Shown here: positions 1 through 59,600 of the stretch, piece by piece
How positions within the stretch are numbered: the stretch's first letter is position 1
Layout: each line of letters starts with the position of its first letter
Translations under genes and position numbers: made by a program
Origin: Trichoplax sp. H2
Taxonomy: Eukaryota
Assembly (NCBI GenBank): GCA_003344405.1
Contig: NOWV01000101.1
Location: forward strand, 124,001 to 188,000
DNA length: 64,000 bases
Reading direction: 5' to 3'
The notes under the pieces: model-generated
What the model saw: only the letters and a program-made list of their open reading frames with translations
Databases searched by the model: none
What the model was told of the DNA's origin: nothing

Positions 1-337
1 TACGTAGCATGACGTACTTTCATGATGTATCATGCATAGCTAGTTATAATGATACACAAGCAACGCCAAGTATGCACCGAACAAAATTGATAACAGTATT
101 TCAAACCCGGGACTTCTATAAGAGAAAATTGTTCAAAGTCCCTGTCCAAACTTACAAGCGGACAGTAGTTTATACAAGACAACTAAGGCTTTTATACAGA
201 CTCTACAGTACAGTACAGTAGTTAACTGTGATCGTTGCAAAAAGTTTTCAACTTTCCTAGGTAATATTGAATCTATAAAAGCACAAAGTCACTGGATTGA
301 CTCTAGATTATACAATATAGTTCGATGTATAGTACTA

Positions 338-799
<462 letters not shown>

Positions 800-1622
800 T
801 TAATTTAAGCTAATTGAATTAAATATGGAGATCAACGGGAAAAATTTTCAAGGAAAATTCGTCCTACTGCTAGCACAAGTAATGTACAGTACGATCATTC
901 ACTATACTATGTACTGTACCTTACAGTGTACAGTACAGTACAGTAGTCGTTGGTCAGCAAGAGTTTGAATGTGCAAAACGACTTGTCATTGCTGTTAGGG
1001 TCACCTCTTTGACGACATGGGTTTGTCTCCTGCTATTGAAGCAATCGCTTCACAGTACAGTACAGTACAGTAGTCGTTGGTCAGCAAGAGTTTGAATGTG
1101 CAAAACGACTTGTCATTGCTGTTAGGGTCACCTCTTTGACGACATGGGTTTGTCTCCTGCTATTGAAGCAATCGCTTCACTCAAAGGTATGACCATTTAT
1201 TTTGCACATTCTATTTGTCGTGCTGTAACCTAATACAGTACAGTACAGTACTGTAGTACAGTACTACTAGTTGACTGCGTAGAGATCACGCCACTGGCGT
1301 TGGCCCATCAGGGCGTTACAGGAAGAAAGTACATAGTACTGTACTGTACAGTACCTGTTAATACTGTGCACTGTAGAGGACTGGAGACTTGGCTTACTAT
1401 ACTGTTCAGTCATTGCGCAGAAAAGCTTGGAGTACACGTGATAGCTAGAAGGCCAAAATTGCAAATCTTGCAAGCAATTTCACCACCTAAAGATTCGACA
1501 GTCTTGTATAGTATCGCTTGACTAGGGATCATTTTCTATTTTACGCTACTTCAAGAGGAAATAAGATTGTCAACTACCTCAAATCAGTCAGAGTCATCCT
1601 ATNNNNNNNNNNNNNNNNNNNN

Positions 1623-2029
<407 letters not shown>

Positions 2030-9940: not shown

Positions 9941-11612
9941 TACGGTGCGTTGATTGCATGATATTTAAATACGGTTAAACAAATAACGCCGAGAAGTCTT
10001 TTATGTCTATAGTGTCTGAAGAATTTATCATTTTGGATTAAGTTAAAGCAAGTATTTCTTGTCGAGCCAACTTAGCTGAAAGAAAGCTTGAAGCCTAGAA
10101 AAATTTGTAAGTTTAAAAAAATTAGACAGCTATAATATTATAATCCATCAATGCTTTAGGAGAGTGAAAGTTTTATCATTGTACTGTGCTCAGTGCTCAC
10201 GCTCAAATATTAGCAATCTTGATATCTTTTTTTGTAAAGTTTTTGCAAAGCATCAGTGCAGTGCTGTCAGGGTTGAGTGCAATGATATTGAAAATGTCTG
10301 TTAATTCCTGGATAGAAAGAGAAATGGGATCATAGCTAGGTCTAGGACTATCGAATTACGAATATTGTTGCTCATAAGCTAGCAATTAGGAAATGAAAAT
10401 AGTCGTCATTATGAACCGTTTGATGTGAGCATCGAAGCAGAGCTGCTTCGATATTTTCCTTTTACTGTATACAAAAAGCAAAATGAATTGAGTAGTCATC
10501 GAATATACCAACTTTAGCAATAATCATAGCCTGTTCTAACATACTGTACTGACGTTAGAAGTAATAAATTAACTTGTAACTACACCAACTGCTGATTGGA
10601 GATGGAGCACTCGATCGCATTCATCACCTTTCCGATCAAACCTTGTTAGTAAGTCATAAATACATGATCCTTCGATGAACTAGTACTGTACAGTGTACAG
10701 TACACAACAGCAAGGAAACATACTCAAAACAGACTCTACACACTGGTGTACTACTGTACAGTATTGTACTTTCTATCAGCATTTACGGTACTGTAACACG
10801 TAGAGTTTTTTCTTAACTCTATGACTGCACTGTACAGTACAGTATGATGTCATCTTAACTGTACGGTGTGTGAATCACGCGAAGCGACTGAATCGAACCA
10901 AACGTTCTTAGTACGCTACGTTACCATAGAGCCGAGCTTCTGACAAGAATGTGATGCTAGTAAATTAATTAATAGGATATAGAAAGATTTGACCGTACAG
11001 TATATGGAATCTTTTGACGATACTAATACTTGCAAACTACTGGAATAGTGAAGCAATTGATTACCTTAAAAAGTAAAATAAAATGAAACTAAACTTACTT
11101 ACTTGTCTTCACCATGTGTAAAATCAGCACAGTACCATTGACTGAATATCAATATCTATAACGAGAATCCTAGTACAGCCATTTAGCGTTAGCGTACGGC
11201 CTTTGTCATAATTTACAAGTATGTACGTATTGTACTTGGTATGATTTATGATCACTAAAATTAAACCTAACCGTATCGATTTAAACATTAAAGCGGCAAT
11301 CTTCTACAATACATTTCTTAATATACGCATTGAGTAGTGATTGATTGTACCGGCACTGTTGGTTGCACAGTTTCATAAGAATACTTAAATTGATCGATGA
11401 AATTAAATTAATAATTCATTACATGTTATTATAATCAATATTACTACGGAGAACAGTTCACTTTTTGCCTATTAGATGACAATGCTTCTACTCTGATCAT
11501 TGTATTTCACTGTGCTAAACTATGAATCTGAATCCCATGCAGTATGTGTGTAATACTATAATAGTTCGCAGATTTAAAAGTGTTTTCCTTACTCTTTCCT
11601 TTTATCAGGATA

Positions 11613-13130
11613 ATGAAGACCATTTTAATAACATTAGCCGCTGTCTTAGTGGTTGTTAATGCTGCCGTTTGTCCAGGTGGGCAATCTGAATGTCCAGCTG
11701 GTACTACCTGCTGCAACCTAGGTAGTGGTCAGTATGGATGCTGTCCATTCCCTAACGCTACATGTTGCGCGGATCACGAACACTGCTGCCCTGGTGGATA
11801 CACATGCAATACTGGTGCTGGCACTTGCCAAGTAGGTACTACAGTAATTACTATGCGAAAGAAAATTCCAGCTACACCTGCTCCTGCCAAGAATGGAGTA
11901 TGTCCTGATGGTCAGTCTGAATGCCCGACTGGAACAACCTGTTGTATATCAGCCTCTGGTGCTTACGGTTGCTGCCCATTCCCTAATGCAAGTTGCTGCT
12001 CAGATAAAGAACACTGCTGCCCAAGTGGTTATACATGTGATGTTTCAGCTGGTACATGTACAATGGGTCCCTTGCAATTACCTATGTATGCTAGATTTGA
12101 TGCTAAAAAAAATAACAAAAAGGTAAAGGTTAGCCAACCAGCTAGTAATGGAGTTTGCCCAGATGGTACTTCGGAATGCCCAGTAGGTACTACATGCTGC
12201 AAGTCAGCTTCTGGTTCGTATGGTTGTTGCCCATACCCCAATGCTACTTGCTGCTCCGATATGGAACACTGCTGTCCTAGTGGCTTTACTTGTGATGTTA
12301 GCGGTGGTACCTGCCAAATGGGTACTGTAAAATTGCCTATGTTCGCTAAATTATCACCAAAAAAGGTCAAAGCTCCAGCAGCTAACGGTGTTTGCCCCGA
12401 CGGTATCTCTGAATGCCCTAGCGGTACCACTTGCTGTAAATTAGTATCAGGATCATATGGATGCTGTCCTTATCCCAACGCTGTTTGCTGTTCCGATCAT
12501 GAGCATTGTTGTCCTAGTGGATACACATGCAATGTTGGTGCTGGTACGTGCCGAGCAGGTAACATCGAAGTGCCCATGTTTGCCAAATTTTCCGTCAAGA
12601 AAGTAAAAACTCCAGCATCTAATGGTGTCTGTGCTGATGGCCAATCAGAATGCCCTGCAGGCACAACATGTTGCAAATTAGCTTCCGGCAGTTACGGCTG
12701 TTGCCCATATCCAAATGCTACCTGTTGCTCCGATAACGAACATTGCTGCCCTGGCGGATATACATGTAATGTTGGTGCTGGAACTTGCTCCATGGGTACT
12801 ATCAAGCTACCAATGCTAACTAAAATTCCAGTTATGAAGCGTGCCCCAAGCCCAAAGAATGGAATGTGCCCTGGTGGTCAGTCCGAGTGTCCATCAGGAA
12901 CTACATGCTGCAAACTAGGATCCGGCTCTTATGGTTGCTGCCCTTTCCCTAATGCAACTTGCTGCTCCGATATGGAACATTGTTGTCCATCAGGATTCAC
13001 TTGCAATACCGGTGCTGGTACGTGCTCGTTGGGCAAGATAGAACTACCAATGTTTGCCCGAATCTCTGCCAAGAAAGTCGAGAAGTCTAAAAAACCCAAG
13101 AAAAACTTCTTCAACATGTTTATTTTGTAA
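11613..13130 (+). CDS. GRN: Progranulin: signal peptide plus six full 12-Cys granulin modules in a single coding exon
   Basis: MKTILITLAAVLVVVNA signal peptide, then six C..C..CC..CC..CC.D..HCCP..C..C modules. Acceptor tttatcag at 11608 precedes the ATG. Confidence 0.95.
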   Translation: MKTILITLAAVLVVVNAAVCPGGQSECPAGTTCCNLGSGQYGCCPFPNATCCADHEHCCPGGYTCNTGAGTCQVGTTVITMRKKIPATPAPAKNGVCPDGQSECPTGTTCCISASGAYGCCPFPNASCCSDKEHCCPSGYTCDVSAGTCTMGPLQLPMYARFDAKKNNKKVKVSQPASNGVCPDGTSECPVGTTCCKSASGSYGCCPYPNATCCSDMEHCCPSGFTCDVSGGTCQMGTVKLPMFAKLSPKKVKAPAANGVCPDGISECPSGTTCCKLVSGSYGCCPYPNAVCCSDHEHCCPSGYTCNVGAGTCRAGNIEVPMFAKFSVKKVKTPASNGVCADGQSECPAGTTCCKLASGSYGCCPYPNATCCSDNEHCCPGGYTCNVGAGTCSMGTIKLPMLTKIPVMKRAPSPKNGMCPGGQSECPSGTTCCKLGSGSYGCCPFPNATCCSDMEHCCPSGFTCNTGAGTCSLGKIELPMFARISAKKVEKSKKPKKNFFNMFIL

Positions 13131-21957: not shown

Positions 21958-22962
21958 CTATTTACTTCTGATACTTTCATGCACTTTACACCTTCGATTA
22001 CATTTCAAGAATTGTTTAAATTGTTCCTTAATATTTCTATCATAGGTTAAAAAAATTAAAGGATTAATAAAAGTTAACAGTAGAGTTAGCGGCACTGTAA
22101 TATTACTCAGAACGTAGACTGAGAAATGATATTGCTCCAACTGTCTTAGCGAAATTGTGGAGTAAGAGAGAACCATAGTTTTAATAAGATGTGGTAATTG
22201 ACATAAAAGAAAGACACTGGTAGTTAATACCAATACATGTATAAGATTGCGCTTTTGCCTCATTTCTAACTGTTTTCGCTGATTAGAAAGGCAACCAGGC
22301 CGGATACGCCGTAAAATATATTTAACAATTTTAGTATAATTATAAGCCATGAGTAGACATGGCAAAATAATGACCATAATGACGAAAAAGGTTAGGTAAT
22401 ATTGAACACCAGAATTGCGCTGGTAGATATCACAGAATACCGGAGCATCAATATAAGAATCGGTAAAAATTATATCGGGTATACAAACTAATAGGCCAAT
22501 AGACCAAATAGATGCAATAACTATAGCCATAAATTTCCTATTGGTAAATCGAGATTGGTAATTAAACCATGTTGATGAGACGATAACATCATAACGTTCA
22601 CAACTAATAACAGCTAGGGTTAAATTACATACACTTGAAAATGTATCACTAATATAAAATGATAATTTACACATTAATGAACCACTTTGATAACTGAGTT
22701 TCGTACCAGGTGGTGTAAAAGCTAAAAAAGTTAATCCAGCTGGATAGACGAAGGAAAAAAGACAGCTTGCAAAGGATAAGTTCCAAACTAGTATGTAAAC
22801 CGCTTTATGTAATTTTTTCTTCATGGTAATGATATGAAGTAAAATTATATTCAAAATCAGGCCTAAAATAGAGCTTGGAAGGCCGACAGCAACCGTTATC
22901 GATATTGGAACAATACTACTAACATTAGTGTTACTTAGATTTACTGTTAATGACAAATTCAT
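21958..22962 (-). CDS. Intronless rhodopsin-like (class A) GPCR, 334 aa
   Basis: Seven hydrophobic segments, N-terminal N-glycosylation sequons, TM3 Cys, CERY, LCQLP and NPLIF motifs. Confidence 0.93.
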   Translation of the reverse strand: MNLSLTVNLSNTNVSSIVPISITVAVGLPSSILGLILNIILLHIITMKKKLHKAVYILVWNLSFASCLFSFVYPAGLTFLAFTPPGTKLSYQSGSLMCKLSFYISDTFSSVCNLTLAVISCERYDVIVSSTWFNYQSRFTNRKFMAIVIASIWSIGLLVCIPDIIFTDSYIDAPVFCDIYQRNSGVQYYLTFFVIMVIILPCLLMAYNYTKIVKYILRRIRPGCLSNQRKQLEMRQKRNLIHVLVLTTSVFLLCQLPHLIKTMVLSYSTISLRQLEQYHFSVYVLSNITVPLTLLLTFINPLIFLTYDRNIKEQFKQFLKCNRRCKVHESIRSK

Positions 22963-24433
22963 CTTTAAGCTTCAAGTTACTAGATGTCGTGATCGCCAAG
23001 TTAAATAACTGCTCGATAACTTAATCTTAAAGACGAGTATTAAGCTTTGGTAATTGCTCAGGCTGTAATTAGAATTGAAAATTAATTTCGAGACTATTAG
23101 CTCCGATGAAAAACACGGTCAATTAAATTTGGAAAAATCAAATCTATACCTTCGACGATAGAATAAGTAAGATTCAAAAGATTGAGAAAAAATTTCCTCA
23201 GAATGATGCGCTAAGGATCAGAATGGAAGGCTGAAAATTTAGTTAAAATCTCTTTCTACATACATTGGGATAAATGTCCTTAATAAGCAATAAATTGAAA
23301 ACTATTCAATGTTGAGATCTTTAGAATAAATAGCAGAGATCTGAAAACGTAGGATGGTGGTCAATGATAAAGCAAAGTAGAAGAGTTTCCAGAAAGAGAT
23401 CGAGAATTCTCCGTATAGCTTCAAGCTGATTTTTATACCCAACAAGTTCAGAAACTGAGCATATCAACTCTCACTATTCGTTTCTAAATACTCTCTACTA
23501 TACAGTAGTTCTAAATAATGCAATGGTATCTGTTATATATGAAAAGAATTAATCCTTCTAACAGATAATGAATGAAAGAGATTCAGTATTGTATAAATTT
23601 GCTCATGCAATAGCAGGACGTGCCAGGAAAACCTAATTGCCAGAGAGTAGATGGTAATCTAATACGAGTTAGCTTGAGGGCTTTAATGGCGATTTAAAGC
23701 TAAGTAACATCAAAATAGTCCAAAGCTTCTCGTAATTTCTTTCACTATATTTTTTATAATATAGGAGAATATCTATATAAGAGGTAACTATTCGTGTCCG
23801 AAAAAAATATTTAGGGCGCTAAAGGCTTGAATGAAATTAAATACCAAATTGATAGAGAGTAAATAATTTTTACTTACACTAATGATTTAATGAGGATATA
23901 GGAATTAGACGAAGTTAAATGACTAAAAGTTTAACCTAATCCGTCTTAAATTTGTAACACAATTATTGCTATAAGAAGTAATTTTTAACTTTAGGTAAAT
24001 ATTAATAATTTTAAGGTTAAACTGAAACCAAGCACGTAGGTGAGTAGACAGATACCAATCAATTCTTCCTCAACTTAATGGCCGTAATAGTCATATTATT
24101 ATCGGGGCAAAATCAGGTAATTCAAGGATTTCTATTCCTCTTTATAATATCATTAAAAACAAATTGTAGTTTAAAGAAATAATTTTCAATTTTACGCGGA
24201 TATCCAAGGGACTCAATGATAGAAAGGCCTTAAATATCCATCGATAAGAAGGCGATTAATTCTTACTTAGCTTAAAAGCTCCAAAGATAATATAAGATGT
24301 GGGACAAAGTGATTTAAATTTCAGTCTACTTATTCCCAATATTGTTTTGATGCGAACTTGTCGTTGTAATAAGTAATTTTCAGCTGTAGATAGTGATCAG
24401 TAGGCCCTTAAAGCTGTAGTGAAATGAGATCGC

Positions 24434-42550: not shown

Positions 42551-45500
42551 ATGGCGTTAGAGGTGAATACAAATCATCCACTTTCATCTTTAGACTCAGA
42601 GATCTTCACGCAACCATTACATGAAAAATCTGTGCCAAATCATCTTGTCGAAACAAGTAAGCTACAGTATGAATAAAGTTAGCTTCACGAGAATTATAAT
42701 ACGCATAGTGTACTGTTTAATCACAAATTAGCGCATCAGAAGCTCTTCAACAGGATCATTAGGATGTAGCTTAACTACTAAAACTACTGCCAACGTAAAC
42801 GATGTGATTTGTTTATAACATCCACATTTATGAATAACTATTCTTCAGTTTTATGGGCATCCGTTGACAGTTTTTAACAAACATAATAATCGTATCAGTA
42901 AAGCACCTGTAGTTTTCAATATTACGATAAATTGTTATGAGAAACCTACTCATATATTAGAATTTATATATATATATGATAAATATACAGAAATGATATA
43001 ATGCCATGTCATTTGTTATTATAAAGTTAAAAATGTTTCGGTCAATCTGTAAGATTACTCTCTCAAGAACACACTTGCTATACTCTATTTCGATTTAAAA
43101 CTTGAAGAACCAAGACTACTTAGAATAATTATTTGTCCTATTGAATAACAATTATCAGTTCGTTGGAATTAAGCGCCTATTGCATAAGCTTCCGAATCTT
43201 CTTATTCAATTATTACGGAAATTTCTTTCAGAAATATTTGGCCAGGTTGCTCATAATGCTGTAATTGAAGCTAAACCGTCCGAAGTTCATTTCGCAGGAT
43301 TTCAGATCGGCAAGACAGAAAAATATAAATTGGTAATCTCCGTAGATATATAAAGATTTTATAGCTGAATTCTTGGATGCAAGCAATTACGAGTGAAAAT
43401 ATAAAATCACTCAATCATATCATTTTAGAAACTTTAGTCTTACATTATAGTAGCTATGGTATCATATTCAATTCTAATTATTTACCGTTACGAAAACAGA
43501 AACTTACCAATATCTCGGCGGATCCTCAACGTGTTCATATTATACCGCCAACAACCTCATATTTCAAAATAAGCTATGAAAAACAGGTAAAGTTAAGTCA
43601 ATCCGAAGTTAAATGAGCAAATTTACGTCAGTATGAGTCGCTGCGTTTATATTTGTTCGATAAATTTATCGAATATGTTATCCTATTTGATATTCTTTTA
43701 CTAAATCCAAACTAAACAGGCCCGTCTCGTTCCTGGTTTAAGTATTGAAGTCAATGTTGAACTTTTCCCAAAAGATTGGATCTATTACGATGACTGTATT
43801 CGTGTACACTGCAAAGTAATCTAAGAATCAAGATAATTGACTTTTAATAACTGTGATTAATATGACTATTCTCTTAACAGGATGACGAGAATCTATTGAT
43901 ACCAATTCATGCTTATCCAGTACTTGTAAAGTCTACTGATTTTCCAAAGAAGATTAACTTCCCTAAAACACCGTTAGCTCATAGGTAAAGATGGGTTCGA
44001 TATCAAATATGTATGTCTAATGTATACTGATTTGAATGATTTATTATACATCGAACACCTCTAGTTTTTCAAAAACTATTCCTCTTCGATCAAATATTCC
44101 AGTTGACTTTGAATTTGAAATTAAAATAATAGAATCTAATGATGCATACGTAATAAATCCCATGTCAGGCAAGAATTTATTTTTATCACCAACTGATAAG
44201 TCTGTTTTCCGAATATAGATGACGAAAACATATTAAATTCATATTTCTTTGGCTCTTTTAGGTTGCGTGGCAGCTAACAGCCAGGAAGACATCGTCGTTA
44301 CTTTTACCCCGAATGATTACGCAACCGCCCACATGAAATTTCAGGTAACATAAATAATCGCAGTGATGATAACGAATGCGCATAGATAGATCGCTAAAAG
44401 TCATTTCATAATTTTTAATTAAATATGCTATAGTCGTATTTTGATGTACTTTACTTGTAAAGCGAGTCTTGATGCAAGACTAAAATAGATTTTATTAATT
44501 AACTATTATCAAATATTAGATATTCGAATTAATCATTCCATTTCATTGCTAGCTCTTAGTTTCGCAATTCAATTCAGAATCGTTTGTATGCACGGTAATA
44601 GGATCGTCAGAACCTGGACTTGTTAGGTGTGTGATTATTAATACACTTATAAATTAAATTATCGGTATTATTTTTGATTTGTTCAATAAAACCAATTAAT
44701 AGCTCTTAACGTGTATATCATATATACATACATATATATTTATACAAATTTATTGGTATCTAACGTGTGACACACCGTTATGACGGCCTGTATTCATGAA
44801 AATTTTAGGAAAAAATTAATAGAAGAACATGAAAAAGAGAGTAGTCAAACTTTTCAAGACAACGATATCATAACAATTCCTGGCTATGATTCTATAACTG
44901 ATCCATCGTTGCTGAAGCCATTAGAACGCTCAAAGTATAAGAAAGCTATGAAGAAGACTGTAAAGGTTCAATCTGGTCTTAAGGTAGATATGCATGTACA
45001 AGTACAATTTACAAGTATCCAGCACGTTTAGTTTCATCTGAGCACGAAAATTTATAAAACCAAAATTGTTCAATTTAAAAATACTATTGCGTAAAACAGC
45101 CAGGACAGAAAATACTATCGCAGTAAGAAATGTACATTAAGTTAACGTTAACTACACTGTACTTGCAATGGAATGCTGATTAATTAATTAAGCCAAATAA
45201 CAATACTTGCGGGCAGTGAAATGGCTGCTGGACTCCCCAACACTTATTGCTCACAATATACAGTACTGTACAGCATAATAATTATAATTGGCAATCTAGC
45301 AGACTATGCCTAACAGTACTTACAGTATAACAGTTCTGCAGTACCGTGCAGGGTACGATCAATATACCGTACTGTACAGTATATTTTTTGGAAGCTTGTT
45401 AAATTAATCAGTAAGCAATCTCGGTATACTACTGTACAGTACAGTAAGTAACTGAGGCCATTTGTAGACAAAAACTCGCTCGAAGCTTGCATTGCTCAAG

Positions 45501-48500
45501 AAATAGTGACATAATAATTTTTACTTTATTGACACTTAGCAGTAGGGTAGAATGGTCAGCAACCATAACAAAGTCGTCGCCGGCTCTGCTATGCGAGAGT
45601 TTTAATTCATGGAATAGTCATACTCTCGGATCATCATGTGTATCCTTAATCTGTGTCTCATTTAAGAGACAACAGGTAAGGATCACCCTACTGATAACGC
45701 GACCGTGCCAAATCATCCGTTATTATACTGGAGACCAAACCCCTTCAGTTATGGGATAGATATTTTGCATATTTCATGACGGTACGGTGCGTTTCAGTAT
45801 CAGTACTGTACAGTAATGCAATGCCTTGTTAGTACTGTACTTTACAGTACGTAAAAATGTATGTACTGTACAGTATGTACTGTACAGGATGCAGCACGTA
45901 CTGTACTGTACAGTGTACAGTACAGTGCACTTTTGTTGTACGTCTTTCTCGATAACTGCAGCATTCGAAATTTATTTCATAAAATTCCCAAAATTGTTCA
46001 GTTATTTACAGTTAAAAGCCCGCTTTTACTATTGCTGGTCTTCTACGTACCGTATACATATTTATATATATATATACACTGAATGCGATATAATGTACAC
46101 AAAAATTACGCACAGTGACGTATTACAACTCATTCGCAAAAATGAACAAATTTACCCGGACAGACTAAGCACTAAATAGTGTCAGGCATGCCAAAAATGA
46201 AAACCAAAACTTTAGTTATACAAAATACGCGTATATGCAACTACTATAATTAGGTATATAAAAATATTGGATTGTTTCGACACGGTTATTTGTTGTATAT
46301 ATAGACGGGATTTACTCAAAAGTTTGCCCATCCCCTCGAATTATAATACTCGCATTCATAGACTTACTAAAGGATTATCGGAAAATGAATGAATTACTTG
46401 TTCAGTAATCCTTGATTTAGATTTCTCTAATTAAATGATTTTACGGTCACACCGTATTACCATCTAGTATAGCTACTGCGGTTTAAAAATTCGCAATGAA
46501 AGCGAAATTGAAATAATCTATTAAATACTGGCTATATTAAATATTAATTAATACATATTCAATGTAAAATTATTAGCAGACGTCCCATACTATTGTACTG
46601 TAATTGAATCAAATTTGCTAGTCTGTTAGTATTATAGGCGTACGAAAACTGATATTATACTGTATAATAAAATTAAATAAAGCCGTACATTTAAATTTTT
46701 TTTCTTGATAAATGCACAGTTGTAGGCTAAACATACTGACAAATTTTGTAGTGTATATGATGCATAAACCCGTACGTATAACGCGTATACAAGCTTACTG
46801 TACTACCTTTGTTATAGATATTCTATAGGAAACTACAACCATTAATTAACGTCACTACATCATTTTTAGGGCATGGAAGATATGAAGGTACCGCTTACCT
46901 TGAGTTGTCCTAGTGAAGTAGCACGCGTCCTAAATCAAAAAGACGGGAAAATGAATGTTAAAGAATTAAAACAAGGTAACCTATATTGCATTTACTTCAA
47001 AACTTTTAATTCATCTAGATTCCGTACTATATCTACAATAGTTGAAAACAGATCATAGAAAATACGCGTAAATAGAGTTACTGTCAAAATTTGTATAATG
47101 GGCACATACTGGCATAATACGATGTGCATTGTGATGTGTTTGTGGACAGTTGTACGAGCACACTTACCTGCAATAGAAATCATAGACACACAGCAAAAGA
47201 AAATAAACTTACTAAATTCAATTACCACACCTGGTGAAGGAAAGGAAATTATATCTACACTCTACAGTGATTCTTACGATTTTGTGAGATACTATTGAAC
47301 TAATATAGTAATTAATATAAAGTAAATCCATCAGAACATATATTAATTATCTATTAATAATATAATTTATACTATACAGGCCTAAATAGAACAAGCAAGA
47401 TTCTAAAAACATATTACTTATAGCCGCATATTAACTAAATCTTTCTTTATTTTGCCCTCTTTTTGTCACCTTTAAACGACGTACGCGTATGATATCCAAC
47501 AATAAATCAATATATAGCTGTTGAAGTAGTCTCGAAATCGGAAGCTAACAGGCAGCTGAAGGTTAACTATACGTACTATAAAAAATATTGTTATCTTCCA
47601 GTTAATTATAATCGCTTATCCGTCATATGGTAAACGTGCTTCAATTCTCAATTAATCTATATTCTTTGTAGGAGGCATTTTTCGAACAGCAAGTGCGTCA
47701 ATTTGTTATGGAAGAAAGAGCAAATCAACTACGCTGGTTTGTATTCGATGGATCACTAAATATATATGAATGAAATAGTGAACAACGATTTGATGCTAAC
47801 TTTATCATTAAACTAAAGTGATCAACTAATAAAATTATCACAGGATGGTACATCGAGGAGATGAGAAAATGACAAGTGAGCAACAGGAAATAATTCTAAA
47901 AAGCAGACAGCATTCGGAAGAATCATACAAAGTAAATATTTGCTATGAATTAAGAGCTAATCCTCTTACTGATCTCACTAAATCATATTACTTTAATAGA
48001 TATTTCGAAAAGAATCCATAACATTAAATGAAAGTAATAGGAACGCTGTAAATTGTTCGTATCGTAGAATATTTAGAAATGCAAACGAGGTAAAATTAAC
48101 TATTTCTACTTGTTCTCTCTCAATTTACTAAAGAGTTACAGCTTAATCTAGCGTAAATCAATGCAATCAAATTTCATATAAAATTACTAAATGTCTACGT
48201 AAAATAACAAATCGTTGTATTATTCTAGCTACCAAATTGTCAGCCATCATTTGACGTTTACAGTAACGATAATTGGGCGAAACGACATTCTGTTTTACAA
48301 CGATTTATTCAAGCTGCCCGAAAGGTATACATTACTTGATTGTAAACGCACATGTTGATACAAAGCAATTATTCCGATATCAATATTTTTTAACTAAAAT
48401 CTTTGGATGAGTAACATTATTGTTGGCATTACACGATAGATTATTATAAGAGAAAGAGCACAAAAGCATCTAGAATCATTACAAGTTCTTGTCGATAACT

Positions 48501-55454: not shown

Positions 55455-56645
55455 CTATGCTGTGGCAGTTATACTCCGTAATGATATGTTGTAATTGGAT
55501 TTTAAGTTTTGCCTTGATGTAGCTAAAGATGGATTAGTTATAGAGTGATGACTAAATCGGGTGCAACCGCAAGTTACCAGTAGATAATCCAGGCTGTGAT
55601 TTGTTATACAGATAATGAGTAAGGAATTAATTAAAGGATATGCAACAACAGATGTAGTAGCTATATTAAGAAAAATGATATTGTCAGCCGGCCTTAGAAT
55701 CGATGGCCACAATTCGTACATAGCTAAAGGCAAAACGCACAAGATACCTACAATAACGAATAGAAAGGCGAAAGTTATAGTATTTTTACGATACCGGGCT
55801 AAATTTTGTATAATGCGTGGTTTTAATCCTTTTCGTCGTCCAGTAAAAATAATCCATAACCGATAACCAAGGATGACATAAATAACCAAAGTAATAGCGA
55901 ACGGGAGGCAATAAGATAGAGTAATTGAAACTATAGTTAGATATTTAGCCACGTAATATTCTAATGGCAGGGTAAATTGAAGGCAATTGCACAAAGTTAC
56001 TTGGACATGAGTTTCAATAGCGTTTGTTGCAACAGTTGATAAGTATATCGTTGGTATTATATCGTCGTCAGTAGTAATGTTAGTAGTAGTATTATAATAA
56101 CTTCCGTTATGAGAATAGTACGGACTGTTTGTTGAAAAATTAGTAGGATTACTTAGTGAAGATGTATATACTAAAGTCGTCGCCGGGCGTTTTTGGGAGC
56201 GATACCCAGCAATATAACCGTAAAGTCGCACTATCATTATGAACAGAGCTACGATCCAAATGATCATCATCCTGCGTTTTGTATGTAACTTTGTTGCTCG
56301 TCGTCGCCACAGTGGACTTAGCATGCGAATAAAACGATAGTGGGCAATAGCAACATTTGTCCAAGCTATTACAGTGATCGCATACCAAGTTAAAAAGTGG
56401 CTTACCTTACATAAAATGATATGAACCAAAGGCATTGTACTTACAGATAGAATACCAGATGTACTCATGATGATATAAATCATACTTAGCGTAAGAAGAA
56501 TATCGGTAACAGCAACATTAGTCAAGACATAATTGAATCCATTTTGCAAATTGCGTACACGAAACATCATCAAAATGACCAAAGTATTTACAATCATTGA
56601 TAAAAATAATAGAATTGCCATGATGATGAAGAATGTAAGATCCAT
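55455..56645 (-). CDS. Intronless divergent class A GPCR with a long extracellular loop 2; start at 56645 or 56690
   Basis: TM1 Asn, NVAVTD (TM2), CK (TM3), HYRF in place of DRY, YCLP, LCVLP and NSLLI in place of NPxxY. Confidence 0.88.
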   Translation of the reverse strand: MDLTFFIIMAILLFLSMIVNTLVILMMFRVRNLQNGFNYVLTNVAVTDILLTLSMIYIIMSTSGILSVSTMPLVHIILCKVSHFLTWYAITVIAWTNVAIAHYRFIRMLSPLWRRRATKLHTKRRMMIIWIVALFIMIVRLYGYIAGYRSQKRPATTLVYTSSLSNPTNFSTNSPYYSHNGSYYNTTTNITTDDDIIPTIYLSTVATNAIETHVQVTLCNCLQFTLPLEYYVAKYLTIVSITLSYCLPFAITLVIYVILGYRLWIIFTGRRKGLKPRIIQNLARYRKNTITFAFLFVIVGILCVLPLAMYELWPSILRPADNIIFLNIATTSVVAYPLINSLLIICITNHSLDYLLVTCGCTRFSHHSITNPSLATSRQNLKSNYNISLRSITATA

Positions 56646-59600
56646 CTTGCTTTCTTTTTCTTTCTTGCAATCTCTCTCTCCCTCTTTCAACCTCTATAGT
56701 ATACAGTACGTACTTTATTATCAGCACTAAATTCTTTTCGGTTGAAATGGTCCGAAAAAAATGCCGCTGAGCTAGAAAATTAAGTACACCAAATTTAGAG
56801 TAATATGGTCACGCAATAACGAAAATAATGATCCAATTTATCATTATACGAGTACATATAATGTCCCAGAAAGGATAGATAGGCATAAGTAAAAATAAGC
56901 TTTCGAGATGAAAGTAAATACAATCAAGCAGCTAGTTTCTACTTTAGTTTAAAATCAACGAGCGGAAAATTCTTTTGATTTGCGCCAATTAATAGATATA
57001 CAATAAAAATTTTAATTCCATCTGGTTAGTTATTAGTAGATCTTGTAACATCCAATCAAAGATATCATATGCAGATTCGGAATAGCCAACATCATCAATA
57101 AAACAATGCTATTTATAAATTTGACTTTTCCTAGATTATCAAGGTGTAACCCTTTTACTCTGTAACGTGGTATTGTCTTGCTTTGAACGTATCCGTTAAT
57201 TTTAGCTAAAGCGAACTTTTGACCGTGCTTTCTTATTAAGGTAATAATTGACCGCTTTTAAAAAATTGTTTTTTATTTATTCTTCGCGTTTAATAATTTT
57301 GCTTTTCTCAAGATCTACCAATTTCTATTCAAAGTGTATATCTTCTGCTATAGTGCAATATTGTGTCAATTCCGGTTTAGCATCGGTTTGAGCAGCTGTC
57401 TGGTTTGAAAGTATACCCTTATAAGAGCATCGAATATATCAATACTTTCGGTACTGATGATGTTAAATTTTTTATTATCATAAATATTGGATAACGGTTG
57501 ATTTTCCGCAATCCTATATACTAAATGGCAACCGTTAAAGATAGAATTACATTGGACTATTCAAACTGCAACAGTAATACGGACAATTCTCGATACCTTA
57601 AAGTCATCAGTCTCAAAATAATCTTCTGTAGATTTCTTTTTAATTATAATTCTTATCTTACAAAAGTTTAATAATGTGATTTTATGATGTTGTTTTAAAG
57701 CGCTGTCAAAATTAAATTAAAAATTAAATTAAAAATCTTTAATTAATATTGAATTGAAATCTTGACATGTTGAACAAAAGTAATTATTTTTTTTTATCGG
57801 GAACACAATAACATCTAGGCAATTTTTTTAAACTTAAGCCATTGATTGAAAGGAGATTAAAGTTTGACGTCATTTCAGTCATTCTAAAGGATAATCCGAT
57901 ACCTAACTAATACTCTAATAAGATACATAAGAGGAAGAGTACGGAGAAGGAGAGAAATATTGATATCAATTTAGTAATGAAAAATGTAAAGAGTAATTGA
58001 GTCAAGTTATTAAAATGTAGAATTGTATAGTAGTTAATCTCAATAAAAGATAGAAGTAAGTACCATATGTATTAGTGATATAATAATCTGCTTGATGATC
58101 AAGCTTTTATTTTGCAAAATGAAGACATACTCATACACATGTTATAGGGTACCACAATAAAATCAATTTACGTATTAATTTGTAATTAATTGGATTTACA
58201 TCTCCCTTGTTTCTCATGATTGGAGTATCTGTACGTGTTGCGTCATACACTTGCACAAAGTACACAGAACGGTAATGTGCAGGAAGCAGCATAATTTAGA
58301 AGTTGTTGATGCAATCATTTAGAGAGATTTAAAGATACACTAGATGGTAGAGATAAACTTTGTTATTTTTTCAACAATTTATGAATTCGAAGTACAGTTC
58401 ATATAAATAAATAATAATGAAAGGTTACAATGGTGAGTTGAAATTTTTCTCGAAATAGTTTTAACCGTATCTACTCATACTATTTTTACTAAAAAAGCTG
58501 ATAAAATTATTACCGGTGTTTATCCGCTCCCCTACTACTAATGTATACGTACACTATAGTAGACTCAGAAGGTAACTTTGCAAATTTTGATAAATTAGTT
58601 GACTCTAGAGATTGAATTTATCATTCCATCTTGACTAAGTAAGCAAGTTTATTTATCATAATGCTCAAAGGCTGCACATTTCGCCAGGAATTTATGAGTA
58701 GCATTGTGATGGAAATACAGTATACATGGCATTATTGCTACTAATTTGAGATAAACGATTGTTATTGAGTAGGTCGATCGCGTGGGCACGCTGGAAGAAT
58801 CTACACATATGCTAATCAGTACTATAAATGTCTTACAAAAGACATCGTAAATATTTAAGATCACTTTTATGGGATTAATTTAAAGTTAGGGTTAGGGTTA
58901 AGATTTTAATTGTATTATAAGCTATATGAATCTGAAAATAGAAACGAATAGGCTTTTAAATAAATAGCAGTATAGTTATTATGTTCGGTAGAAAAGCCAG
59001 ACAAAGCCAACGTTCTTAATTTTAGAATAGTGTTCATGTACAGTGCAATAGTGTAACTGTACAGTTGGGTATATGTTATATATATGTATATAGTCTGTTG
59101 TAAATACAGTTAAGGTTGGTTTTATTGTAATAAAGCTTAATTCAGGCTTTAAATCCAGTTAGACTGATTTATTATTGACCCTTAAGAAATGACTTTACTA
59201 TACTGCTCTACGTTGAAACAGATATGTTTTATGAATATGAGAGTCCCACACAATTCAAACCAAGCAAGTTGTTCACCTTAGTACCCGAAGGAAAGGGGAA
59301 GAGGGGAGGAAACACAAAGCACATGTGGTAACCCTTTGGATGTGGAAAGGAAATATTATTTCGCTATCATTATGGCTATTCCTCTTATGTGTTAAATAAT
59401 AAGAAAGATAGTAATTTGATAACTATCTGTAGTCGTTACAGCTAATAACAGTATTAATGAGCAGCGAAAGTTTTACAGTAATTTAAGTAAGCACTGTGCG
59501 ACGTAGATTAGTCGGTTACGCTTAATAAAGTAGTTGTAGATGATAGCTGGTGTGATGAAACGGTATACTTGTACTATTCGTGTAGTGTCGCATTAACAAT

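What the first reader, a model, noticed from the sequence alone, without database searches (positions are those of the whole stretch)
45554..45695. U8 (SNORD118)-like snoRNA gene hidden antisense in a CFAP221 intron
Seen: a ~142-nt minus-strand unit with hairpin 1 (ATCCTTA/TAAGGAT, CTG/CAG, TGTCTC/GAGACA), box C ATGATGA, and hairpin 2 (CGAGAGT/ACTCTCG, loop containing TGAATTA). Hairpin 3 (CATAGCAGAG/CTTTGTTATG, two G-U pairs, GCGA tetraloop) is followed by box D CTGA. Known: vertebrate U8 is an independently transcribed, capped C/D RNA needed for 5.8S/28S maturation, with the blocks AUCCUUACCUGUU, CAGAUUA and ACAUGAUGAU and an LSm-binding UGAUUA loop; it is best characterised in vertebrates. 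Inference: this is a U8 orthologue in an apparently early-branching animal, invisible to ORF annotation. Being antisense to the host gene, it cannot be processed from the intron.
Basis: partly seen in the sequence, partly recalled or inferred. Interest (0 to 1): 0.85.

Follow-up and report, generated by a model that had tools for sequence, protein, structure and literature searches.

The report
U8 snoRNA gene in an invertebrate
A small RNA gene on the opposite strand inside an intron of a cilia gene is a good match to U8, the RNA that helps large-subunit ribosomal RNA mature and that many papers still call vertebrate-specific; here it sits in a non-vertebrate animal.

Summary
The Rfam U8 model (RF00096) matches 45555-45697 end to end at 60.9 bits (gathering 41, E 1.6e-8). 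It is the only Rfam family to reach its threshold in the 64-kb window. The RNA folds far better than shuffles (z -5.4). The host is a plus-strand CFAP221-like gene, and the intron 44984-46869 is confirmed by spliced RNA contigs. I found one new feature. The 5' end (CAGUAGGGUG) pairs with the 3' trailer 5-14 nt past the predicted mature end, with 9 Watson-Crick pairs plus one G-U. Only 6 of 20000 shuffles reach this. Human pre-U8 has the same kind of 5'-end/3'-extension duplex. A TATA-like box lies at -32 to -26, and no T-run follows the gene. Not shown: a discrete transcript, cap, copy number, pairing with this species' 28S, or the phylum. The organism is a non-vertebrate animal with no close annotated relative, so "early-branching" is untested. 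No relatives' U8 genes could be fetched. Verdict: a genuine, probably functional U8 gene and a new member of a known family.

The parts
45554..45695 (-). Predicted mature U8 snoRNA, about 142 nt, starting at A 45695. The Rfam match runs 45697-45555.
   Evidence: RF00096 at 60.9 bits (GA 41), full model 1-135; fold z-score -5.37. The exact ends are inferred, not mapped.
45684..45693 (-). 5' end segment CAGUAGGGUG. It pairs with the 3' trailer in the predicted precursor. It lies in the region that binds 28S in vertebrate U8.
   Evidence: (precursor MFE). The 28S role is by analogy only.
45671..45683 (-). Conserved block AUCCUUACCUGUU.
   Evidence: identical to the Rfam consensus at all 13 positions.
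45680..45688 (-). Near-palindrome GGGUGAUCC. It lies where the Rfam consensus reads GGuUaAUCC and where the 2025 preprint places the palindromic homodimer domain of human U8.
   Evidence: Read. The domain is named. This is inference by position and was not tested.
45651..45675 (-). Stem-loop 1: 9 canonical pairs (CUG/CAG plus UGUCUC/GAGACA).
   Evidence: no non-canonical flags, and the stem letters differ from the consensus while pairing is kept. Also seen.
45642..45648 (-). UAAGGAU, which pairs with AUCCUUA (45683-45677). This 7-bp extension of stem-loop 1 is specific to this sequence and arises from insertions relative to the Rfam model.
   Evidence: (inserted letters shown in lower case), and the MFE structures.
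45631..45637 (-). Box C AUGAUGA, within ACAUGAUGAU, which is identical to the consensus.
45594..45628 (-). Stem-loop 2: a 7-bp stem CGAGAGU/ACUCUCG and a 21-nt loop with UGAAUUAA at 45609-45602. The loop is like the LSm site but has one extra A.
   Evidence: Rfam flags 4 non-canonical pairs in its own version of this hairpin.
45564..45593 (-). Stem-loop 3: 10 pairs including 2 G-U. The loop CCGGCGACGA matches the consensus GCAACA at 4 of 6 positions.
45556..45559 (-). Box D CUGA.
45540..45549 (-). 3' trailer segment UACCCUACUG, complementary to the 5' end (9 Watson-Crick pairs plus 1 G-U).
   Evidence: precursor MFE -56.9 against -51.0 kcal/mol for the mature form, and 6 of 20000 flank shuffles reach 9 pairs; this is the only complement of that 9-mer in the window.
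45518..45533 (-). GTCAATAAAGTAAAAA, a loose likeness to an snRNA 3' box, about 21-36 nt past the predicted 3' end.
   Evidence: Read. The 3' box consensus is recalled from memory, so this is inference only.
45721..45727 (-). TATAATA at -32 to -26 relative to A 45695.
   Evidence: Read. It is unchanged in the related organism's contig. Its function is inferred.
45763..45770 (-). ATGCAAAA at -75 to -68, one letter off the octamer motif of vertebrate snRNA enhancers.
   Evidence: Read. The octamer motif is recalled from memory, and this may be chance.
44984..46869 (+). Host intron (GT..AG) of the CFAP221-like gene. It holds the U8 unit on the opposite strand.
   Evidence: (spliced RNA contigs in X19 and X20, loose ends at 44984).
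44809..44983 (+). Upstream exon of the host gene.
   Evidence: contigs of 1107 and 1794 nt cover 44805-44984; AG at 44807-44808.

Best explanation
This is a genuine, probably functional U8 (SNORD118-type) box C/D snoRNA gene of a non-vertebrate animal. It lies antisense in a 1.9-kb intron of a CFAP221-like gene, so it must be transcribed from its own promoter. That promoter is most likely an snRNA-type RNA polymerase II promoter with a TATA-like box at about -30. The primary transcript probably runs at least 16 nt past box D. In that precursor the 5' end (CAGUAGGGUG) is held in a 10-bp duplex with the trailer, as in human pre-U8. Trimming of the trailer then frees the 5' end. The mature ~142-nt RNA carries box C and box D for the core snoRNP proteins, three stem-loops, and the invariant AUCCUUACCUGUU block. 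By analogy with vertebrate U8, its 5' domain is expected to pair with the pre-rRNA around the 5' end of 28S and so chaperone 5.8S/28S maturation. Shown here: the family match, structure, boxes, trailer duplex, host intron and strand. Inferred: the polymerase, the ends, the cap, snoRNP assembly and the rRNA function.
For:: RF00096 at 60.9 bits (GA 41), E 1.6e-8, full length. It is the only one of 4227 families to reach gathering in the window. Stem-loops 1 and 3 are fully canonical, yet their stem letters differ from the consensus; no competing family. The next hit on the same stretch is TtnuCD26 at 20.3 bits against GA 90; z -5.37, with 0 of 200 shuffles folding as well; the 9 WC + 1 G-U duplex between 5' end and trailer is reached by 6 of 20000 shuffles. 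The 9-mer complement occurs nowhere else in the window. Adding the trailer switches the MFE to this duplex (-56.9 against -51.0 kcal/mol); in human pre-U8 the same kind of duplex was validated by a compensatory double mutant. TATAATA lies at -32 to -26, and there is no run of 4 or more T until about 80 nt past box D, which argues against polymerase III; in a closely related organism's contigs, 0 of 8 fixed substitutions and 0 of 3 fixed indels over 45102-45779 fall in the 162-nt pre-U8 unit. A second variant there changes A 45624 to G, which keeps the stem-loop 2 pair as G-U; the host gene is on the plus strand and the intron is spliced.
Against: No discrete ~140-nt minus-strand RNA is shown. 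The RNA-library contigs cover the unit and the flanking intron at similar low depth, and contigs carry no strand or end information. The LSm-type loop reads UGAAUUA rather than UGAUUA, which interrupts the GAUU motif that describes as highly conserved and mutated in patients. Rfam flags 4 non-canonical pairs in its version of hairpin 2. The nucleotide before box D is G where the consensus has U. The conservation signal against the flanks is weak: by my arithmetic P is about 0.11 for substitutions alone and about 0.05 with indels. No relatives' U8 sequences were obtained, so there is no covariation across species, and the trailer duplex rests on one locus. Copy number in the genome is unknown. 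Pairing with this species' 28S could not be tested.
Confidence: 0.8

Rival explanations
1. It is a silent or decaying extra copy (pseudogene) of U8, and the working gene lies elsewhere in the genome.
For: No proof of expression. The LSm-type loop has an extra A, and the position before box D is not consensus. Copy number could not be checked because no genome is held. One search reports that zebrafish has five U8 copies, so multi-copy families exist.
Against: The copy is full length, with both boxes and all three stems intact. A TATA-like box lies at the expected distance. A significant trailer duplex lies outside the mature RNA, which a retro-copied pseudogene would not carry. No fixed difference falls in the unit between two related organisms, while the flanks differ at 8 sites. 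A DNA-run contig runs from inside U8 into 174 nt of upstream flank without a break, at a depth (58.5) like single-copy neighbours.
Confidence: 0.12
2. It descends from U8 but has taken on another role in this lineage, for example as a structural or regulatory C/D RNA that no longer chaperones 5.8S/28S folding.
For: Lineage-specific insertions create a 7-bp extension of stem-loop 1 that sequesters the invariant 13-mer. The LSm-type motif is altered. The rRNA pairing is untested.
Against: The blocks that are invariant in the Rfam consensus are retained letter for letter: the 13-mer, CAGAU and ACAUGAUGAU. This is what continued selection for the ancestral role would give. The masking of the 5' end by the trailer matches the known maturation pathway.
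Confidence: 0.06
3. It is a chance resemblance, or one of the hairpins created by the palindromic TACTGTACAGTA repeats that fill this intron.
For: The intron is full of such palindromes. They attract many weak microRNA-model hits (12.7-22.8 bits, all far below gathering).
Against: The U8 unit lies between the repeats and contains none of them; the repeats are at 45370, 45430, 45804 and 45864. E is 1.6e-8 for the whole window. 0 of 17 loci that share the two conserved blocks by chance score as U8.
Confidence: 0.02

Closest known systems
Vertebrate U8 snoRNA (SNORD118; Rfam RF00096)
   Same: Same order of parts: free 5' end, invariant AUCCUUACCUGUU, stem-loop 1, CAGAU, box C in ACAUGAUGAU, stem-loop 2 with an LSm-type loop, stem-loop 3, and box D near the 3' end. 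It is an independent gene rather than an intron-processed one. [quoted passage not shown]
   Different: It is 142 nt against a 135-position model, with insertions after stem-loop 1 that create a 7-bp extra stem over the 13-mer. The loop reads UGAAUUA instead of UGAUUA. The stem-loop 3 loop matches the consensus at only 4 of 6 conserved letters. G precedes box D. The host organism is not a vertebrate. Papers up to 2025 describe U8 as vertebrate-specific.
C. elegans CeR-2 RNA (candidate U8 orthologue, PMC2943600; passages read)
   Same: It is a non-vertebrate, TMG-capped C/D RNA with three stem-loops, an LSm-like loop matching 6 of 8 positions, and a 5' end able to pair with the 26S 5' end. It affects ITS2 processing.
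   Different: According to that paper CeR-2 could not be assigned to any family by sequence. The present RNA passes the U8 covariance model outright. CeR-2 has experimental support and this locus has none.
Yeast snR190 and T. brucei TB10Cs4C4 (functional analogues)
   Same: They are C/D RNAs that act as chaperones or processing factors for LSU pre-rRNA rather than as plain methylation guides.
   Different: They show no sequence or structure homology to U8. The trypanosome authors state that all their searches for a U8 homologue failed. The present RNA is a homologue, not only an analogue.

Membership tests
U8 snoRNA (RF00096) | Covariance-model score at or above Rfam's gathering score, over the full length | tested here: met
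   60.9 bits against 41, model 1-135 of 135, E 1.6e-8; same score, E 1.6e-10 on 651 nt.
U8 snoRNA (RF00096) | Invariant 5' block AUCCUUACCUGUU followed by stem-loop 1 and CAGAU | tested here: met
   13 of 13 letters identical, 9 canonical pairs in stem-loop 1, and CAGAU present.
U8 snoRNA (RF00096) | Internal box C (AUGAUGA) and 3'-terminal box D (CUGA) | tested here: met
   box C at 45637-45631 and box D at 45559-45556. The position before box D is G where the consensus has U.
U8 snoRNA (RF00096) | Stem-loop 2 carrying the LSm2-8 binding motif (UGAUUA in the Rfam consensus; 'highly conserved GAUU') | tested here: inconclusive
   the loop reads UGAAUUAA with one extra A inside GAUU, and Rfam flags 4 non-canonical pairs in its own hairpin 2. 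A 7-bp stem CGAGAGU/ACUCUCG does enclose the loop.
U8 snoRNA (RF00096) | Stem-loop 3 with a conserved loop sequence (one search says the loop is conserved across evolution and essential) | tested here: inconclusive
   the stem is met, with 10 pairs including 2 G-U. The loop GCGACG matches the consensus GCAACA at 4 of 6 letters. Figure S9D of the preprint is not held.
U8 snoRNA (RF00096) | [quoted passage not shown] | tested here: met
   9 WC + 1 G-U pairs, reached by 6 of 20000 shuffles, and the MFE switches to this duplex; the complement is unique in the window. notes that this duplex is not evident in zebrafish, so it may not define the whole family.
U8 snoRNA (RF00096) | 5' end complementary to the 5' region of the species' own 28S rRNA | not testable with these tools
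   There is no rDNA in the window, no genome is held, and the single read-laying run was already spent.
U8 snoRNA (RF00096) | Independently transcribed, capped (m7G to TMG) polymerase II product with a 3' box | tested here: inconclusive
   Being antisense to the host intron forces an own promoter. TATAATA lies at -32 to -26, no early T-run follows the gene, and a loose 3'-box-like string is present. The cap and the polymerase cannot be tested here. No other snRNA gene of this genome was available for a promoter comparison.
U8 snoRNA (RF00096) | Expressed as a stable ~140-nt nucleolar RNA required for 5.8S/28S maturation | not testable with these tools
   One search gives only contigs from RNA libraries, with no strand, ends or level.
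Other Rfam C/D snoRNA families | Score at or above that family's gathering score on this stretch | tested here: not met
   the only other C/D hits are TtnuCD26 at 20.3 bits (GA 90) and sno_ncR3 at 13.8 bits (GA 88, plus strand, in the flank). No other snoRNA family model matches this stretch at E up to 10.

The most novel reading that the evidence does not exclude
U8 and its precursor architecture, in which the 28S-binding 5' end is masked by pairing with the 3' trailer until trimming, are much older than vertebrates. This lineage adds a second mask, a 7-bp extension of stem-loop 1 over the invariant 13-mer. If so, the 5'/3' duplex that is hit in most leukoencephalopathy (LCC) patients would be an ancestral maturation checkpoint rather than a human peculiarity. 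U8-dependent 5.8S/28S folding would then be a general animal feature, testable in a simple organism.
Probability: 0.45. Interest if true: 0.6.

Novelty: new member of a known kind. Interest (0 to 1): 0.42.

Why it matters
Ribosome-biogenesis and LCC papers up to late 2025 still call U8 vertebrate-specific. One review table says 'only in metazoans', and a 2010 paper stated that no invertebrate homologue was known. A non-vertebrate locus that passes the U8 model in full and also carries the precursor 5'/3' duplex argues that the U8 pathway is older than usually stated. It also offers an outgroup for deciding which U8 domains are ancestral. The value is limited for two reasons. The curated Rfam model finds the gene unaided. 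A 2011 survey of unusual animal snoRNAs, which I could not read, may already list non-vertebrate U8 genes.

Tried and rejected
(1) Expression. I laid two RNA-library runs and two DNA or unknown-type runs on 44700-46000. The RNA contigs cover 45102-45779 at depth 3.5-10, without stopping at the U8 ends, against about 55 for the neighbouring exon. Contigs give no strand, ends or level, so this neither shows nor excludes a U8 transcript.

(2) Relatives. A two-block pattern search returned 11 metagenome loci, 5 prokaryote-genome loci and 1 viral locus. 0 of 17 are U8, so all are chance matches. No cross-species alignment, covariation count or model of my own was therefore possible.

(3) Whole genome. 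None is held, so I could not count copies, fetch rDNA or compare with other snRNA promoters.

(4) Phylum. For IDI the best named hit is 66% identical (Branchiostoma), and the two top hits at 81% and 85% are unnamed. One GPCR has a single homologue. For granulin the best named hit is 53% (a crinoid), and sponge, mollusc and coral hits score alike. An IDI tree of 30 rows used the query, 24 named rows and the 5 top unnamed rows, and left out the other 91 listed rows. It puts the query in a well-supported six-row clade in which the other five rows are unnamed. Atlas look-alikes of two GPCRs lean weakly to Cnidaria. The phylum is unresolved.

(5) Bacterial-type promoter and terminator scan. It is not relevant to a eukaryote and gave nothing usable.

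(6) Pfam on 10 host-gene ORFs. It gave only two sub-threshold Ig/ASH-like hits. The CFAP221 assignment rests.

(8) Papers not held: Marz et al. 2011 and Tomasevic & Peculis 2002. Three broad literature searches returned only off-topic papers or no papers.

Full report
**Observation.**
- AUCCUUACCUGUU at 45683-45671.
- Stem-loop 1: CUG/CAG and UGUCUC/GAGACA, with an outer AUCCUUA/UAAGGAU stem.
- Box C AUGAUGA at 45637-45631.
- Stem-loop 2: CGAGAGU/ACUCUCG, with UGAAUUA in the loop.
- Stem-loop 3: CAUAGCAGAG/CUUUGUUAUG, with two G-U pairs and an inner GCGA loop.
- Box D CUGA at 45559-45556.

**Family match.** A scan of the whole window against all 4227 Rfam families gave exactly one match at gathering level. 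It is U8 (RF00096) at 45555-45697, minus strand: 60.9 bits against a gathering score of 41, E 1.6e-8, covering model positions 1-135 of 135.

A permissive scan of 45300-45950 listed 30 matches with E up to 10. Only U8 exceeds its threshold. On the same stretch the next best is a Tetrahymena C/D family at 20.3 bits (gathering 90). The other matches are microRNA models hitting the palindromic repeats in the flanks, far below threshold.

The 144-nt RNA folds at -51 kcal/mol, against -30.0 +/- 3.9 for 200 dinucleotide shuffles (z -5.37, none as good).

In the Rfam alignment, stem-loops 1 and 3 have no non-canonical pair, although their stem letters differ from the consensus. That pattern is what a homologue under structural selection should show.

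As a negative control, a pattern made of the two most conserved blocks found 17 loci in metagenome, prokaryote-genome and viral collections. None of the 17 scores as U8. The blocks alone therefore do not produce the match.

**Setting.** Three plus-strand ORFs upstream (43129-43353, 43365-43616, 44036-44218) each have CFAP221 (PDB 9ijj chain L) as their best solved-structure hit. The E-values are 0.1, 0.0018 and 0.00024, and the hits fall at collinear chain positions 46-75, 64-109 and 176-211. Pfam gave nothing above threshold.

Two RNA-library runs contain spliced contigs that cover 44805-44984 and continue with letters found at 46871. With the GT at 44984 and the AG at 46868-46869, the intron is 44984-46869 on the plus strand.

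The U8 unit lies in the middle of this intron on the other strand. It therefore cannot be released from the intron and needs its own promoter.

Upstream, TATAATA sits at -32 to -26 from A 45695, and ATGCAAAA sits at -75 to -68. Downstream there is no run of four or more T for about 80 nt, which argues against polymerase III. A loose 3'-box-like string lies at 45533-45518. The 3' box and octamer consensus motifs are recalled from memory.

**A new feature.** The 5' end CAGUAGGGUG (45693-45684) is complementary to UACCCUACUG (45549-45540) in the trailer, 5-14 nt beyond the predicted mature 3' end. The match is nine Watson-Crick pairs plus one G-U.
- Adding the trailer switches the minimum-energy fold to this duplex (-56.9 against -51.0 kcal/mol).
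- Only 6 of 20000 shuffles of the 45-nt trailer reach nine pairs, and only 2 of 2834 45-nt tiles of the window do.
- The 9-mer complement occurs nowhere else in the window; the only other match is the 5' end's own opposite strand.

A 2020 preprint (passages read) showed that human pre-U8 forms exactly this kind of duplex between its 5' end and 3' extension. The authors validated it with a compensatory double mutant and reported that it is hit in 29 of 33 patients. They also noted that it is not evident in zebrafish. [quoted passage not shown]

All of these have a counterpart here, with four deviations.
- The LSm-type loop has one extra A, which interrupts the GAUU motif.
- The stem-loop 3 loop matches the consensus at 4 of 6 conserved letters.
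- G precedes box D where the consensus has U.
- Insertions after stem-loop 1 create a 7-bp stem that sequesters the invariant 13-mer.

**Variation.** Contigs from a closely related organism cover 45102-45779. They differ from the window at 8 fixed substitution sites and 3 fixed indels. None of these falls in the 162-nt pre-U8 unit, which is 24% of the covered length. By my arithmetic P is about 0.11 for substitutions alone and about 0.05 with indels, so this is weak support.

One further low-depth contig carries two changes inside U8. The first is A to G at 45624, which keeps the stem-loop 2 pair as G-U. The second is a one-letter insertion in the loop. This is a second allele or a second copy.

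**What is not shown.**
- Contigs cannot show strand, ends or level. The RNA-library contigs cover the flanking intron as well as the unit, so expression is unproven.
- No genome is held. Copy number, other snRNA promoters and the species' 28S were out of reach.
- No relatives' U8 genes were obtained.
- The organism is a non-vertebrate animal, but I could not place it in a phylum. The 'early-branching' claim is therefore untested.

**Comparison and novelty.** By every sequence and structure test available here, this is a member of the U8 family. Functionally it is expected to act like vertebrate U8.

Papers read in part still call U8 vertebrate-specific: a 2020 preprint, a 2025 NAR paper and a 2025 preprint. 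A 2023 review table says 'only in metazoans'. A 2010 paper said no invertebrate homologue was known and proposed C. elegans CeR-2 as a candidate. My searches of the held library for U8 homologues or orthologues found nothing further.

A 2011 survey of unusual animal snoRNAs is not held. I recall that it covers U8, and it may already report non-vertebrate members. The figures of the two preprints are also not held.

I therefore rate this a new member of a known kind. The possibly new point is that the precursor 5'/3' duplex is present outside vertebrates.

Noticed in passing
window 45370-45381, 45430-45441, 45804-45815, 45864-45875 (and 9 other sites): The palindromic 12-mer TACTGTACAGTA occurs 13 times in the window against 0 expected. 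Four of the 13 flank the U8 unit almost symmetrically: the inner copies lie 113 nt downstream and 107 nt upstream of the RNA. Related repeats reach word depths up to about 53000 in DNA runs, so this is a very abundant genome-wide repeat. Whether it is linked to the U8 gene, for example as a mobile cassette or a regulatory site, is open.
   Followed up: partly
window 45573-45654: In RNA-library run X19 two contigs of equal extent differ at two places inside U8. One difference is 45624 A to G in RNA sense, which keeps a G-U pair. The other is a 1-nt insertion in the stem-loop 2 loop. This is a second allele or a second U8 copy in the related organism.
   Followed up: partly
window 335-799 and 1574-2029, minus strand: Two near-identical copies of an isopentenyl-diphosphate isomerase exon lie 1.2 kb apart. 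The second is interrupted by unknown letters, read as X in the translation. This is either a tandem duplication or an assembly artefact.
   Followed up: no
window 11565-13130, plus strand: An uninterrupted 521-codon frame encodes a signal peptide and about seven granulin repeats. The best named relatives are only about 50-56% identical.
   Followed up: partly
window 21958-22971 and 55455-56693, minus strand: Two intronless rhodopsin-type GPCR genes. The first has a single homologue at E <= 1e-5 in the 5.8-billion-protein search, 60% identical. Atlas look-alikes lean weakly to cnidarian receptor clusters.
   Followed up: partly
L005 350-1808 and L013 2579-4038: Two of the chance pattern-hit bacterial loci each carry four DUF805b RNA motifs with identical scores, so they are the same or nearly the same sequence from two collections. 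They are unrelated to the finding.
   Followed up: no
window 45531: The related organism has G>A on the plus strand here, which is C>U in the trailer, inside the 3'-box-like string. By my recollection of the 3' box consensus this change brings the string closer to it.
   Followed up: no
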